A DNA stretch of 64,000 bases from Vicinamibacterales bacterium (lineage in GTDB: Bacteria > Acidobacteriota > Vicinamibacteria > Vicinamibacterales > JAMQPK01). The notes under the pieces were generated by a model that was not told the DNA's origin, did no database searches, and worked only from the letters and a program-made list of their open reading frames with translations. Positions 37,265-40,185 of the stretch are shown here, piece after piece; position 1 is the first letter of the stretch; each line of letters opens with the position of its first letter. The translations under genes were made by a program, and so were the position numbers. Where the stretch lies: the NCBI GenBank assembly GCA_963850295.1, contig CAWKKU010000014.1, positions 334,010 through 398,009 on the forward strand, in the 5' to 3' direction.

Positions 37265-37964
37265 GGGGTGCGCGCGTCGCTGAAAGAAATGGGAGCGCTT
37301 CGCTCGACCCCGACGGCCCCTTGCTGTCGAGATAGGCGTGGTAGTACTTCAACCACACATCGCCGTAGGGATGGTCCTTATATCGCTCGAACCAGGGACC
37401 CCCTTCGGTGTAATGGATGAGCTGCGTGTCGTCGGCATACCGATCGAGGACGTTCCACGTAAACGGCAAATCGCCGATCTGCTCGTCAGGAATATCTTCG
37501 AACCGGTGCAGCCAGCTCGGGGGCCGTGTTTCCACTGCCTCGGGCGTCCAGAGCTTCAGCTTGGCGCAGTTCATGAGCATGAAGCTCGACCAGTTCTTTC
37601 TCGGATACACCGTTTGCACTTTGCCGTCCATTTTGACCGCTGAGGTCGGGCGGTAGTCGTGCTTGACGACACGGAGCGCCAGGTCTGACATGTCCAGATC
37701 GAACAGCGGATTCAGGTCGGCGAGCGCGACCATGTCGCAATCCATGAACAGCGCGAGACCTCGATACGCGCACAGTGACGGCACGAGAAACCTGGTAAAG
37801 GTGAACTCGGTCGATGCGAGCGGATCGTGGCGGCTGAAATTGAGTTCCGCAATTTTCAGCGGACGAATGTCGAGAGGACGTGAGGCGTGCGCCTCGATGG
37901 AATATTTGAGGACCTGATAGGCAATGTCCTCGCGACTGTCGTAGCCGATGAACACTGTATTCAT
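37257..37964 (-). CDS. Nucleotide-diphospho-sugar transferase, GT8-like (DxD)
   Basis: 235 aa. TEFTFTRFLVPSLCAYRGLALFMDCDMVALADLNPLF. A GT-A-like layout with a DxD motif (DCD). Confidence 0.45.
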   Translation of the reverse strand: MNTVFIGYDSREDIAYQVLKYSIEAHASRPLDIRPLKIAELNFSRHDPLASTEFTFTRFLVPSLCAYRGLALFMDCDMVALADLNPLFDLDMSDLALRVVKHDYRPTSAVKMDGKVQTVYPRKNWSSFMLMNCAKLKLWTPEAVETRPPSWLHRFEDIPDEQIGDLPFTWNVLDRYADDTQLIHYTEGGPWFERYKDHPYGDVWLKYYHAYLDSKGPSGSSEALPFLSATRAPHV

Positions 37965-38974
37965 GATCGCCGGACTCCTTGGCGTGCTTCTTTGGCTGGT
38001 GCGTTATTCACATTGAACCCGTATCTGAGGATGTCGTGAATATGGACGACCCCAACCGGGCTGTCGGCATGATCCAACACCAGTAGCGAGGTCACGCGCT
38101 CCCGCTCCATGTCGACCAGCGCGTCCATGCTCAAGGTTCCAACCCGCACCGATCGGACCGGCACCGACATGAGCTCCGCCGCCCGCCGGGTGTCGAGGCC
38201 GGGCCGGCCCATCGCACGCCGTACATCGCCATCGGTGATGATGCCAATGGTTCCCGAGCGTGCGTCTTCGACGATCACCAGACCCATCGCGCCGTCGGTC
38301 ATCACCTGAACGACTTCGCGCATCGGCCGTTCGCCGGCGACACGTGGAAAATCCGTGCGCATCAACTGCTCCACGGATGTCTGCAGCTTCTGGCCGAGCG
38401 CGCCGGCTGGATGCAATCCGGCGAAATCGCTGACCTGAAATCCTTTGACGCCGCTGGCCGCAACCGCGAGCGCATCGCCAAGGGCCAGCGACGCGGTACT
38501 GGACGATGTGGGCGCGAGCCCGAGCGCACACGCCTCGTCGGTCACGCCCGTTTCGAGGATGATGTCGGCGCTCGCATCGACTTTTCCTCCGCCGCGGCTC
38601 ACGATCGCAATCGTCACAGGTTTGCAGCGCCCGCGGGCCGCCGAAAGAAACGCCACCAGCTCATCGCTGTTGCCGCTGTGCGAAATGGCAACGACAACAT
38701 CGCCGGGCTGGATCATGCCCAGGTCGCCATGCATCCCCTCAATTGGATGGATGAACATGGCCGAGCAGCCGAGGCTCGAGAGCGTGCTCGCAAGCTTCCG
38801 GGCGATGGCGCCCGACTTGCCGACAGCCGTCGTCACGATTCGTCCGGAACAGCCGGCAATCGCCCGGGCGGCTCGGCAGAATCGATCGTCGAGACCATCC
38901 CGCAATGCCAGCAGCGCTGCCGCCTCGTCGGCGATTACGCGCCGCCCTTCGTGGAGGAGAGCTTCGTCAGTCAC
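37961..38974 (-). CDS. kdsD: KpsF/GutQ/KdsD-family sugar-phosphate isomerase (arabinose-5-phosphate isomerase; SIS + CBS pair)
   Basis: 337 aa; GTG start in a GTGA overlap. GRIVTTAVGKSGAIARKLASTLSSLGCSAMFIHPIEGMHGDLGMIQPGDVVVAISHSGNSDEL, then two CBS-like repeats. Confidence 0.85.
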   Translation of the reverse strand: MTDEALLHEGRRVIADEAAALLALRDGLDDRFCRAARAIAGCSGRIVTTAVGKSGAIARKLASTLSSLGCSAMFIHPIEGMHGDLGMIQPGDVVVAISHSGNSDELVAFLSAARGRCKPVTIAIVSRGGGKVDASADIILETGVTDEACALGLAPTSSSTASLALGDALAVAASGVKGFQVSDFAGLHPAGALGQKLQTSVEQLMRTDFPRVAGERPMREVVQVMTDGAMGLVIVEDARSGTIGIITDGDVRRAMGRPGLDTRRAAELMSVPVRSVRVGTLSMDALVDMERERVTSLLVLDHADSPVGVVHIHDILRYGFNVNNAPAKEARQGVRRS

Positions 38975-40185
38975 GTTGTGTCTCCAGCGCGACCTACGCC
39001 GATTGTCTGGCGTTCCGTGACGCTCTCGTCGACACCCCGTTTCCAGCTGATCCGGGGTCGAAACACCAGTTTGTCCACGCGCGCCGCGTTCTCGCGAACG
39101 ACGGCAAGCATACGGTCCAGCACCTCGTCCGTCAGAAGATGCGACTTCAATCCGAGCTCGGGCAGCTTCGTATGGACCGCATTGTAATAATGCTGCTCGG
39201 CCTCGACTCGCGGATTGGGCAGGTGATCGACGGCGACCGTCAGCCCGGCACGGCGTCCAGCGGCTTCGACGCGGTGCGCCAGGTCCATTACCGAAAATCG
39301 CTCGGTGAACTGATTGAAGACGCGAAACTCACCGGGCGCGGCGGGATTGTCGGAGGCGAGCGCGACGCACTGGATCGTATCGCGTATGTTGAGAAACCCT
39401 CGGGTCTGTCCGCCCGCACCATAGACCGTCAGCGGTTCTCCGACCGCGGCCTGCACCATGAATCGATTCAGCACCGTCCCGAAAACGTCGTCGTAGTGAA
39501 AAGACGTTCTCAGATCCGAGTGCAATGCGGTCTCGTCGGTCTCGATTCCATAGACGACACCCTGGTTGAGATCGGTACAGCGGAAGCCCCATACCCTGCA
39601 TGCGAACTCCAGGTTCGCCGAGTCGTGAACCTTCGAGAGATGGTAAAAGCTGCCCGGCCGCTTCGGAAACAGCACGGTGTCCTTGCGGCCTTTGTGCTCG
39701 AGGGTGATCCAGCCCTCTTCGATATCGATGTTCGGCGTGCCGTACTCACCCATCGTCCCGAGTTTCACGAGGTGGGCATCGGGGCAGTGACTTTGCATCG
39801 CGAACAACACGTTCAGCGTGCCGATGATGTTGTTGTGCTGCGTGTACACCGCAGCGGAGCGGCTTTGCATCGAATACGGCGCCGACGGCTGTTCGGCGTA
39901 ATGAATGACCGCATCCGGGCGAAATTCCCGAATCGCCTTGTAGACGAACCGGTGGTTGCAGAGATCGCCGACGAACAGCCCGATCTCCCGGCCGCCGATC
40001 GACTGCCACAGTCTCAGCCGCCGATGCAGCGGGAGAATCGGCTGTAGCGGCTCGATGCCCTCTTCGAGCTCCCATTGCCGCTTTGCAAAATTATCGAGCA
40101 CGGCCACGTCATCGCCGCGCGCGGAAAAATACATTGCTGTCGGCCACCCCAGATAGCCATCGCCGCCGAGAATCAGTATCCGCAT
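38971..40185 (-). CDS. sqdB: SQD1/SqdB-like UDP-sulfoquinovose synthase family (extended SDR)
   Basis: 404 aa. [20 protein letters not shown]...[13 protein letters not shown]...[35 protein letters not shown]...[51 protein letters not shown]...[10 protein letters not shown]. These blocks match the SQD1 family as I remember it. The substrate is not proven. Confidence 0.7.
   Translation of the reverse strand: [404 protein letters not shown]

What the first reader, a model, noticed from the sequence alone, without database searches (positions are those of the whole stretch)
37961..40185. SQD1-like UDP-sulfoquinovose synthase translationally coupled to KpsF inside a surface-glycan operon
The 404-aa product carries the long conserved blocks I associate with SQD1/SqdB/Agl3: [76 protein letters not shown]. 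These differ from ordinary epimerase/dehydratase motifs. In bacteria this enzyme is normally linked to sulfolipid synthesis (sqdB with sqdX/sqdD). I did not recognise sqdX/sqdD specifically, although several GT4 and one GT8-like genes of unassigned specificity are present. The gene's stop overlaps the GTG start of a KpsF/KdsD isomerase, among capsule-type genes. This hints at a sulfonated sugar being incorporated into a polysaccharide or glycoconjugate, which is known for archaeal N-glycans but rarely documented in bacteria.
Basis: partly seen in the sequence, partly recalled or inferred. Interest (0 to 1): 0.6.

Follow-up and report, generated by a model that had tools for sequence, protein, structure and literature searches.

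The report
Sulfo-sugar synthase inside sialic-acid-like cassette
The gene is a genuine relative of the plant enzyme that makes the sulfonated sugar nucleotide UDP-sulfoquinovose, but here, as in many unrelated bacteria and some phages, it sits inside a gene set for nine-carbon sialic-acid-like sugars, which points to an undescribed sulfonated surface sugar and not to the classical sulfolipid.

Summary
ORF 38971-40185 (-) encodes a 404-aa protein 58% identical to Arabidopsis SQD1 (E 4e-157). All catalytic motifs are present, and its TGA overlaps the GTG of a KpsF-family isomerase.

The KpsF coupling exists only in this lineage. It is best explained as Kdo supply for an ABC-transporter-type capsule.

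The more telling partner lies upstream: NeuB-like synthase, NeuC-like epimerase and a CMP-transferase. That cassette flanks SQD1 homologues in 21 of 81 related loci from several phyla, all on one side of a well-supported tree branch.

I then sampled from the NeuB side. NeuBs with F112H, N184T, F288W and a shortened, basic beta2-alpha2 loop carried SQD1 in 8 of 8 well-flanked metagenome loci. Ordinary NeuBs did so in 0 of 19. In Neisseria NeuB that loop touches the substrate's C6-OH.

Two phage contigs carry a compact NeuC-2HADH-CMP-transferase-SQD1-NeuB block with no glycosyltransferase in the 2 kb upstream or the phage genes downstream.

My best reading (about 0.42) is a four-enzyme line to a CMP-activated 9-sulfo nonulosonic acid. 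The main rival (about 0.36) is UDP-sulfoquinovose as a separate donor.

This scan found the same pattern before in at least 17 other genomes. I found no publication of it.

The parts
38971..40185 (-). SQD1/SqdB-type UDP-sulfoquinovose synthase homologue (P0001, 404 aa)
   Evidence: E 4e-157 and 58% identity to Arabidopsis SQD1. Catalytic T144-M-G-E-Y148, Y181-H182-x-x-K185, H95 and Q208 are kept; SQD1 R101 is Pro here, paired with D267N. It is the only copy in the genome.
37961..38974 (-). KpsF/GutQ-family sugar-phosphate isomerase (P0002, 337 aa); its GTG start overlaps the SQD1 stop by 4 nt
   Evidence: TIGR00393 scores 231 bits against a cut-off of 203.7; SIS plus CBS domains. A second paralogue at 49% identity lies elsewhere in the genome.
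40205..40932 (-). CMP-sugar synthetase (CTP_transf_3, NeuA/PseF-like), broken by a 1-nt deletion near 40568
   Evidence: Pfam PF02348. The two halves are 87% and 81% identical to the intact 242-aa gene of L004. The single missing base shows against L004, L093 and L094.
40939..42093 (-). NeuC-type hydrolysing UDP-sugar 2-epimerase
   Evidence: TIGR03568 scores 332 bits against a cut-off of 236. Best PDB matches are the human GNE epimerase domain and LegG. No cassette-specific residues were found.
42101..43138 (-). NeuB-family synthase of the SQD1-linked subfamily (H108, T181 and W285, equivalent to Nm F112, N184 and F288; short basic beta2-alpha2 loop with W75 and R78)
   Evidence: PF03102 plus SAF. 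It falls below the NeuB and PseI equivalog cut-offs. Signature and loop are shown.
43132..43917 (-). Methyltransf_24-like protein between the two NeuB genes; full-length in L004, only 190- and 50-aa unassigned ORFs at that place in L093, none in L094
   Evidence: comparison with L004, L093 and L094.
43914..45317 (-). Second NeuB paralogue with an ordinary pocket (F, S, I at the three positions); start codon uncertain
44966..46528 (-). TagF-like GT-B protein, candidate nonulosonic-acid transferase
   Evidence: PF04464. NCBIfam BFO_1060 family glycosyltransferase, E 1e-10, below cut-off. A homologue occurs in 7 cassette loci.
37257..37964 (-). Small GT8-like glycosyltransferase (P0003, 235 aa)
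   Evidence: PF01501, E 1e-7. The family is 60-70% identical across phyla and occurs without SQD1.
36533..37264 (-). Methyltransf_24 methyltransferase, absent at this place in L093 and L094
35179..36498 (-). 439-aa protein with no family hit; its relatives recur beside the GT8 family
   Evidence: No Pfam or NCBIfam hit. It is 25% identical over its full length to the GT8 neighbour in L095.
33392..35182 (-). 596-aa protein with a C-terminal ABC ATPase domain, probable exporter
   Evidence: PF00005 at residues 387-535. Conserved in L093 and L094 and in 7 cassette loci.
29991..31598 (-). KpsC/KpsS-type Capsule_synth protein
   Evidence: PF05159, E 4e-9.

Best explanation
P0001 is a working SQD1-type enzyme that adds sulfite to C6 of a UDP-hexose to give UDP-sulfoquinovose. 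In this organism the product serves a horizontally acquired surface-glycan operon, not a sulfolipid. The most likely route uses the three genes directly upstream as one line. The NeuC-type enzyme releases and 2-epimerises the 6-sulfo sugar. The specialised NeuB condenses it with PEP to give a 9-deoxy-9-sulfo non-2-ulosonic acid. The CMP-transferase activates that acid, and a TagF-like transferase plus the ABC exporter place it in a capsule-type polymer. KpsF, coupled to the 3' end of SQD1, supplies arabinose-5-phosphate for the Kdo linker made by the KpsC/S-type enzyme. Shown: gene identities, motif conservation, operon packing, two-way synteny and the altered NeuB pocket. Inferred: every catalytic step, the substrate of NeuC and NeuB, and the final sugar.
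For: 1. Enzyme identity: E 4e-157 to SQD1 with all catalytic residues kept. PAPS reductase lies next to the SQD1 homologue in 4 cassette loci. The host has PAPS-reductase family genes.
2. Synteny seen from SQD1: 21 of 81 related loci carry at least two of NeuB, NeuC and CMP-transferase within 7 kb. Gene order varies. Hosts are Alpha-, Beta- and Gammaproteobacteria, Actinomycetota, Saccharibacteria and Parcubacteria. All 21 lie on one side (28 rows) of a branch with SH-aLRT 98, and none lie among the 55 rows on the other side, which includes Arabidopsis SQD1.
3. NeuB pocket: all SQD1-linked NeuBs, some only 33-35% identical to the window's NeuB1, have F112H, N184T/S and F288W. Unlinked paralogues in the same loci do not.
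4. Out-of-sample test seen from NeuB: with at least 3 kb on both flanks, 8 of 8 signature loci carry SQD1 against 0 of 19 others. Overall 0 of 57 ordinary NeuB loci carry it.
5. Loop change: the signature class has a beta2-alpha2 loop about 13 residues shorter, with a conserved Trp and an R/K-rich motif. In Neisseria NeuB this loop holds Asn74, which contacts the ManNAc C6-OH (PMC11339185). In human NANS the loop favours the use of the 6-phosphorylated substrate (PMC8208679).
6. No kinase or phosphatase family was among the gene families that recur in the cassette loci.
7. Phage contigs L187 and L184 carry SQD1 overlapping a short NeuB and next to a CMP-transferase. L187 also shows NeuC and 2HADH, giving a five-gene overlapping block. 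Ribonucleotide reductase, nuclease, ATPase and ParB-methylase genes follow directly. No glycosyltransferase lies beside the block.
8. The only glycosyltransferase family recurring with the cassette is TagF-like, with a sub-threshold match to the BFO_1060 family.
Against: Nothing has been tested biochemically; all evidence is neighbourhood and residue pattern. NeuC, NeuB and a CMP-transferase already form a complete pathway from UDP-GlcNAc, so SQD1 could simply supply a second donor. The cassette NeuC enzymes show no class-specific residue. Known hydrolysing 2-epimerases act on 2-acetamido sugars, while the SQD1 active site shows no change that suggests a UDP-GlcNAc substrate. NeuB keeps Arg314, the residue that binds the N-acetyl carbonyl in Neisseria NeuB (PMC11339185). 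In this window a retaining GT8 lies two genes downstream and could use UDP-sulfoquinovose directly. One signature NeuB, L121, has 9.7 kb of downstream flank with no SQD1. The CMP-transferase is frameshifted in this assembly. Loci are related to each other and were sampled by similarity, so the counts overstate independence. Earlier checks within this scan priced the same reading at 15-25%.
Confidence: 0.42

Rival explanations
1. Two separate sugars in one glycan. SQD1 makes UDP-sulfoquinovose, which a glycosyltransferase uses directly (here perhaps the GT8 or a GT4). NeuC, NeuB and the CMP-transferase independently make an ordinary or merely unusual nonulosonic acid from UDP-GlcNAc. The genes travel together because the repeat unit contains both residues.
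For: NeuC, NeuB and NeuA are self-sufficient (established knowledge of the CMP-Neu5Ac pathway). The SQD1 active site is unchanged. NeuC has no remodelled residues. NeuB keeps Arg314. UDP-sulfoquinovose is a proven direct donor for Sulfolobus N-glycans (PMC4388408). A GT8 and several GT4 genes lie in or near the operon.
Against: It does not explain why one NeuB subfamily, altered at the loop that contacts substrate C6, is tied so closely to SQD1: 8 of 8 against 0 of 19. No UDP-sugar glycosyltransferase family is conserved across cassette loci. The phage block has no glycosyltransferase beside it. The GT8 family occurs widely without SQD1.
Confidence: 0.36
2. The SQD1-like enzyme works without sulfite as a 5,6- or 4,6-type dehydratase. 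It would take the first-step role that PseB, LegB or Pen play in 9-deoxy nonulosonic acid pathways, so the final sugar would be a 9-deoxy acid with no sulfur.
For: Agl3 forms UDP-glucose-5,6-ene when sulfite is absent (PMC4388408). [quoted passage not shown] SQD1 occupies the dehydratase position in the cassette.
Against: Every SQD1-specific residue is strictly conserved, including H183 and the TMGEY block. PAPS reductase sits beside the gene in 4 loci. The NeuB loop gains basic residues, which fits an anionic rather than a deoxy C6. No partner reductase is conserved.
Confidence: 0.1
3. Classical sulfolipid role: the enzyme feeds sulfoquinovosyl diacylglycerol synthesis and lies in the glycan operon by chance.
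For: This is the textbook role of bacterial SqdB. SqdD of Rhodobacter is GT8-like (my recollection, not tested here), and a GT8-like gene is nearby.
Against: The gene is packed into the operon, with a 19-nt gap upstream and a 4-nt overlap downstream. None of 24 same-genus genomes has an SQD1 homologue. The GT8 family is not tied to SQD1. The cassette linkage recurs across phyla.
Confidence: 0.03

Closest known systems
Arabidopsis SQD1 / bacterial SqdB (UDP-sulfoquinovose synthase of the sulfolipid pathway; PDB 1qrr, 1i24)
   Same: Same fold and length, 58% identity, and the same GxxGxxG, T-M-G-E-Y and Y-H-x-x-K motifs.
   Different: No SQD2/SqdX or SqdD/SqdC partner was recognised. It belongs to a separate branch with E80R and Y160W. 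It also carries the P101/N267 pair in place of R101/D267, a pair shared with 19 sequences outside that branch. It is embedded in nonulosonic-acid genes.
Agl3 of Sulfolobus acidocaldarius (UDP-sulfoquinovose for S-layer and archaellin N-glycans)
   Same: A sulfoquinovose synthase that serves a surface glycan and not a lipid (PMC4388408).
   Different: The window protein scores 448 bits on the NCBIfam UDP-sulfoquinovose synthase model NF041015, below its 575-bit cut-off; of the two control genomes that hit this model, Sulfolobus acidocaldarius and Synechococcus elongatus, only one passes. In Sulfolobus the sugar is transferred as sulfoquinovose, and no NeuB/NeuC link is described.
NeuC-NeuB-NeuA CMP-Neu5Ac pathway (Neisseria meningitidis, E. 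coli K1)
   Same: The same three enzyme families in one operon. Metal and PEP ligands are kept in NeuB1: E25, K53, Q55, K129, S132, S154, S213, H215, E234, H236 and D247.
   Different: NeuB1 falls below the NeuB and PseI equivalog cut-offs. It has F112H, N184T and F288W and lacks the Asn74 loop. An SQD1 gene is inserted in the operon.
Legionaminic and pseudaminic acid pathways (LegB/PseB, then LegG, LegI, LegF)
   Same: The same logic: C6 is modified on the nucleotide sugar, then a NeuC-like hydrolase, a NeuB-like synthase and a CMP-transferase act in turn (established pathway knowledge; PMC8208679).
   Different: No aminotransferase or N-acetyltransferase is in the cassette. The C6-modifying enzyme is SQD1-type and not a 4,6-dehydratase.
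Human NANS (uses ManNAc-6-phosphate)
   Same: The NeuB fold accepts a substrate with an anionic group on C6, helped by the beta2-alpha2 loop (PMC8208679).
   Different: That route needs a kinase and a phosphatase; I saw neither among the families that recur in the cassette loci. The loop sequences are unrelated.
E. coli group 2 capsule region 1 (kpsF with kpsC/kpsS and an ABC exporter)
   Same: An accessory KpsF paralogue in an operon with a Capsule_synth gene and an ABC exporter, alongside a separate housekeeping KdsD-like gene.
   Different: KpsE/KpsD and KpsU were not identified here. KpsF is coupled to SQD1, and a small GT8 gene follows it.

Membership tests
SQD1/SqdB/Agl3 UDP-sulfoquinovose synthase (EC 3.13.1.1) | Extended SDR fold with an N-terminal GxxGxxG NAD site | tested here: met
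   GGDGYLG at residues 7-13; PF01370 E 8e-21.
SQD1/SqdB/Agl3 UDP-sulfoquinovose synthase (EC 3.13.1.1) | Signature [ST]MG...Yx3K (PMC8987622) with His after the Tyr, plus E148/Y149 and H96 | tested here: met
   T144-M-G-E-Y148, Y181-H182-L-S-K185 and H95; invariant in all 82 homologues sampled.
SQD1/SqdB/Agl3 UDP-sulfoquinovose synthase (EC 3.13.1.1) | Full-length similarity to a solved, assayed member | tested here: met
   E 4e-157 and 58% identity over 382 residues to Arabidopsis SQD1.
SQD1/SqdB/Agl3 UDP-sulfoquinovose synthase (EC 3.13.1.1) | Score above the NCBIfam equivalog cut-off (NF041015, 575 bits) | tested here: inconclusive
   448 bits. Of the two control genomes that hit this model, Synechococcus elongatus and Sulfolobus acidocaldarius, only one passes the cut-off, so it looks too strict for part of the family.
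SQD1/SqdB/Agl3 UDP-sulfoquinovose synthase (EC 3.13.1.1) | Arg at SQD1 position 101 (an Arg101 is essential in Agl3, PMC4388408; I could not verify that the positions are equivalent) | tested here: not met
   Pro100 here. P101 always comes with N267 (47 sequences) and R101 with D267 (36), with no mixed pairs. This suggests a replaced pair and not a lost ligand. No P/N-type enzyme is known to me to have been assayed.
SQD1/SqdB/Agl3 UDP-sulfoquinovose synthase (EC 3.13.1.1) | Conversion of UDP-glucose plus sulfite to UDP-sulfoquinovose | not testable with these tools
   Needs an enzyme assay.
Sulfolipid (SQDG) gene set | A linked SQD2/SqdX (GT4) or SqdD/SqdC partner | tested here: inconclusive
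   No such gene is adjacent. The GT8 (P0003) has no NCBIfam hit and belongs to a family found without SQD1. No reference SqdX or SqdD sequence was available to search the genome.
NeuB family nonulosonic acid synthase | NeuB TIM-barrel domain plus SAF domain, with metal and PEP ligands | tested here: met
   PF03102 E 4e-61 and PF08666; ligand positions conserved.
N-acetylneuraminate synthase / pseudaminate synthase equivalogs | Score above TIGR03569 (399.65) or TIGR03586 (340.25), and the Asn74 loop and Phe pocket of Neu5Ac synthases | tested here: not met
   275 and 206 bits. F112H, N184T and F288W, with the loop replaced.
NeuC-type hydrolysing 2-epimerase | Score above the TIGR03568 cut-off | tested here: met
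   332 bits against 235.9.
KpsF/GutQ arabinose-5-phosphate isomerase | SIS domain plus tandem CBS domains, and the TIGR00393 cut-off | tested here: met
   231 bits against 203.7; PF01380 and PF00571. The KdsD and GutQ equivalog cut-offs are not reached (248 of 505; 210 of 481).

The most novel reading that the evidence does not exclude
SQD1, the NeuC-like enzyme, the H112/W288-type NeuB and the CMP-transferase form one pathway. Its product is a CMP-activated nonulosonic acid with a carbon-bound sulfonate at C9, a sugar class not described so far. The pathway is spread by horizontal transfer among many bacterial phyla and carried by some phages as an auxiliary module. A further, more speculative point concerns this lineage, which lacks the 2-hydroxyacid dehydrogenase common in other cassettes. 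Here the SIS-domain KpsF paralogue coupled to SQD1 might act on a sulfo-ketose/aldose pair and not on arabinose-5-phosphate.
Probability: 0.42. Interest if true: 0.85.

Novelty: new variant of a known kind. Interest (0 to 1): 0.66.

Why it matters
Sulfoquinovose is a major organosulfur compound. In bacteria it is known almost only as the head group of a membrane lipid.

A dedicated, widely transferred route that puts a C-sulfonate on a sialic-acid-like surface sugar would add a new class of acidic sugar to bacterial and phage surface chemistry. It would also add a new sink in the sulfonate cycle and a new epitope type for phage and immune recognition.

The idea is directly testable with four recombinant enzymes and mass spectrometry.

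If the rival reading is right, sulfoquinovose in a bacterial capsule or O-antigen would still be unusual. My searches of the held open-access papers found no paper on such a glycan by title or abstract.

Tried and rejected
1. GT8 as SqdD: rejected as unsupported. The family is widespread without SQD1 and pairs with relatives of the 439-aa unknown, or with KpsF plus GT29.
2. KpsF as a conserved partner of SQD1: rejected. It is absent from all other cassette loci.
3. A changed SQD1 sugar pocket, which would hint at UDP-GlcNAc use: only D78N/F79H, E80R and Y160W separate the branch, and none is at a known catalytic position.
4. A remodelled NeuC pocket: none found, only S/T at GNE position 139.
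5. The NCBIfam cut-off as a membership test: uninformative.
6. Pseudogene reading of the CMP-transferase: a single missing base, with both halves 81-87% identical to intact relatives.
7. Host taxonomy: not resolved. The EF-Tu cluster carried no organism names.
8. The SQD1 structure paper (PMC23906) is not held, so residue contacts in SQD1 could not be read.
9. Literature: no paper holds 'sulfoquinovose' with 'nonulosonic' or with 'sialic acid synthase'. 'sqdB' with 'neuB' gave two papers, and the only relevant one, the Haloquadratum genome paper, treats the two genes separately. Searches pairing the synthase with 'capsul' and sulfoquinovose with LPS/O-antigen terms listed nothing relevant by title or abstract; those papers were not opened.

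
Full report
**The observation**

The minus-strand ORF 38971..40185 encodes 404 residues.

Against the PDB the protein matches Arabidopsis SQD1 at E 4e-157 over residues 2-383. The next family, UDP-glucuronate decarboxylase, scores only E 1e-11. Identity to SQD1 is 58.4% over 382 positions.

The SQD1/Agl3 signature [ST]MG...Yx3K (PMC8987622) and the residues probed in Agl3 and SQD1 (PMC4388408) are all present: H95, T144-M-G-E-Y148, S179 and Y181-H182-L-S-K185. 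Q208 (SQD1 Q209), invariant across the sampled homologues, is also present.

The TGA stop lies inside GTGA, whose GTG starts a 337-aa protein. That protein passes the NCBIfam KpsF/GutQ cut-off and has SIS and CBS domains.

**The operon**

Read 5' to 3' on the minus strand, the operon contains these genes:
- a Wzy_C-type protein, then an HTH protein;
- a TagF-like GT-B protein, with a weak match to the BFO_1060 glycosyltransferase family;
- NeuB paralogue 2, then a methyltransferase-like gene;
- NeuB paralogue 1, a NeuC-type epimerase and a CTP_transf_3 CMP-transferase;
- SQD1, KpsF and a small GT8;
- a methyltransferase and a 439-aa protein with no family hit;
- a fused ABC exporter, a second NeuC and another methyltransferase;
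- a KpsC/S-type Capsule_synth gene.

Gaps are tiny: 19 nt before SQD1, then overlaps of 4, 4 and 8 nt after it.

The CMP-transferase is split by one missing base near 40568. Both halves are 81-87% identical to the intact 242-aa genes of three close relatives. Earlier notes on this window report indel errors in the assembly.

**What is conserved around SQD1**

The closest homologues are P0004 (89%), P0006 (79%) and P0010 (76%). Each sits directly after NeuB, NeuC, sometimes a 2-hydroxyacid dehydrogenase, and a CMP-transferase.

I fetched 80 genome loci with SQD1 homologues and searched them with the window's proteins. Together with L004, 21 loci carry at least two of NeuB, NeuC and CMP-transferase within 7 kb. 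Gene order varies. The hosts are Alpha-, Beta- and Gammaproteobacteria, Actinomycetota, Saccharibacteria and Parcubacteria.

In a maximum-likelihood tree all 21 fall on one side (28 rows) of a branch with SH-aLRT 98. The other 55 rows hold none; they include Arabidopsis SQD1, Acidobacteriota, Chloroflexota and other Actinomycetota. This sample was ranked by similarity to my query and the rows are kin, so it shows clustering, not a clean rule. An earlier check in this scan reports that a similar 'perfect split' failed a wider census, although the linkage itself held in more than 100 loci.

KpsF and the GT8 follow SQD1 only in the window's own lineage: L004, L093 and L094.

None of 24 same-genus genomes has an SQD1 homologue, so the block is an accessory and probably transferred.

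**KpsF and the GT8**

The genome has a second KdsD-like gene at 49% identity. The operon has a KpsC/S-type gene and an ABC exporter. This matches the known layout of group 2 capsule loci, where an extra KpsF supplies arabinose-5-phosphate for the Kdo linker. That is the simplest role for KpsF here.

The GT8 belongs to a ~220-aa family that is 60-70% identical across distant phyla. In other genomes it lies without SQD1, next to a relative of the 439-aa unknown (25% identity over full length), or next to a KpsF-like gene and a GT29. So it is not shown to be SqdD, although a role as a sulfoquinovosyl transferase cannot be excluded.

**One pathway or two sugars: the NeuB pocket**

I compared NeuB sequences at the ligand-contact positions listed for Neisseria NeuB (PMC6795526). 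Every SQD1-linked NeuB has F112H, N184T/S and F288W, including those only 33-35% identical to the window's NeuB1. Unlinked paralogues in the same loci, and the window's two other NeuBs, keep Phe or Met at 112 and varied residues elsewhere. The metal and PEP ligands are unchanged.

I then tested this on fresh data. I scanned metagenome contigs with a NeuB alignment and classified the 80 best loci by those three positions.
- 23 loci had the signature.
- With at least 3 kb on both sides, 8 of 8 signature loci carried an SQD1 homologue, one of them as a fragment at the contig end.
- 0 of 19 ordinary loci with the same flanks carried one, and 0 of 57 ordinary loci overall.
- The signature loci without SQD1 mostly end before the expected position. 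L121 is a real exception.

The signature class also has a beta2-alpha2 loop about 13 residues shorter than that of the ordinary NeuBs, with a conserved Trp and an Arg/Lys-rich motif. In the alignment of 13 genome-locus cassette NeuBs, W75 and R78 (window numbering) are invariant. In Neisseria NeuB this loop holds Asn74, which binds the C6 hydroxyl of ManNAc (PMC11339185). In human NANS the loop favours use of the 6-phosphorylated substrate (PMC8208679).

So the part of NeuB that touches substrate C6 is rebuilt and made basic exactly where an enzyme that sulfonates C6 is present. No kinase or phosphatase family was among the gene families that recur in the cassette loci.

**Phage contigs**

Eleven IMG/VR contigs encode SQD1 homologues, and nine have NeuB, NeuC or a CMP-transferase nearby.

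In L187 the genes overlap in the order NeuC, 2HADH, CMP-transferase, SQD1 and a short NeuB. They are followed at once by ribonucleotide reductase, a PD-(D/E)XK nuclease, an AAA_24 ATPase and a ParB-methylase. L184 shows the CMP-transferase, SQD1 and short NeuB followed by the same phage genes. No glycosyltransferase lies beside either block. These phage NeuBs also have His at 112 and a very short Trp-containing loop.

A compact module of this kind is more easily read as making one activated sugar than two.

**Points against the single-pathway reading**

- NeuC, NeuB and a CMP-transferase are already a complete route from UDP-GlcNAc.
- The cassette NeuCs come from different NeuC lineages (28-81% identity) and share no special residue.
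- Known hydrolysing 2-epimerases use 2-acetamido substrates. Yet the SQD1 branch differs from the rest only at D78N/F79H, E80R and Y160W, which gives no hint of a switch to UDP-GlcNAc.
- NeuB keeps Arg314, which binds the N-acetyl carbonyl in the Neisseria enzyme.
- SQD1 Arg101 is Pro here. This always pairs with D267N (47 against 36 sequences, no mixed pairs). The pairing looks like a swapped structural pair, but I know of no assayed enzyme of this type.
- Everything rests on sequence and neighbourhood.

**Verdict**

P0001 is a member of the SQD1/SqdB family by every sequence test except the Arg101 position, and it very probably feeds a surface glycan.

I commit to the four-enzyme line ending in a CMP-activated 9-sulfo nonulosonic acid, at about 0.42. 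Next come a separate UDP-sulfoquinovose donor at 0.36, a sulfite-free dehydratase role at 0.10, and sulfolipid at 0.03.

This scan has already reported the same arrangement in at least 17 other genomes, where the bold reading was later priced at 15-25%. My own additions are the out-of-sample NeuB-side test, the mapping of the changed loop to the C6 contact, the negative result for NeuC, and the account of KpsF and the GT8 in this lineage.

I found no paper that describes the linkage.

Noticed in passing
window 40205-40932 (-), break near 40568: The NeuA/PseF-like CMP-transferase lacks one base relative to L004, L093 and L094, which splits it into 165-aa and 108-aa frames. Both halves remain 81-87% identical to the intact relatives.
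   Followed up: partly
window 43132-45317 and 36533-37264 (-): Compared with the close relative L094, the window has an extra NeuB paralogue plus a Methyltransf_24-like gene inserted before NeuB1, and another Methyltransf_24 gene inserted between the GT8 and the 439-aa unknown. L004 has a full-length copy of the first methyltransferase-like gene; L093 has only short unassigned ORFs (190 and 50 aa) at that place.
   Followed up: partly
L100:4951-7445; L095:4670-6693; L098:6001-8507: The small GT8 family recurs in distant phyla beside a KpsF-like SIS/CBS gene and a GT29 sialyltransferase-family gene (L100). It also recurs beside relatives of the window's 439-aa unknown (L095, more weakly L098). 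This suggests a conserved two-gene glycan module of unknown function.
   Followed up: partly
L005, L008, L013, L014, L016, L022, L102, L103, L108, L109, L114, L119, L120, L187: A D-2-hydroxyacid dehydrogenase usually sits between NeuC and the CMP-transferase in SQD1-linked cassettes, the phage one included. It is missing in the window's lineage, which instead has KpsF after SQD1. Its role in the pathway is unexplained.
   Followed up: partly
L077:5304-7196, L064:13355-14548, L060:6079-8004 and about 25 other acidobacterial loci: In Acidobacteriota the SQD1 homologues of the Arabidopsis-side branch are flanked by a PMT_2 (ArnT-like GT-C) gene directly upstream, a GT21/GT2 gene downstream and an asparagine synthase. 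This is another context that is not the classical sqdB-sqdX operon.
   Followed up: no
L184, L185, L186, L187, L191, L194 (IMG/VR contigs): On predicted viral contigs the NeuB next to SQD1 is only 231-266 aa where complete (cut at the contig end in L191) and lacks the SAF domain that supplies Arg314 in bacterial NeuB. L184 and L187 were confirmed as phage context.
   Followed up: partly
L019:3046-3720, L020:9287-9967, L026:9269-9961, L027:9289-9960: A PAPS/APS reductase gene lies immediately upstream of the SQD1 homologue in four cassette loci (two candidate-phyla-radiation genomes, one Gammaproteobacterium, one unclassified). This fits a local sulfite supply.
   Followed up: partly
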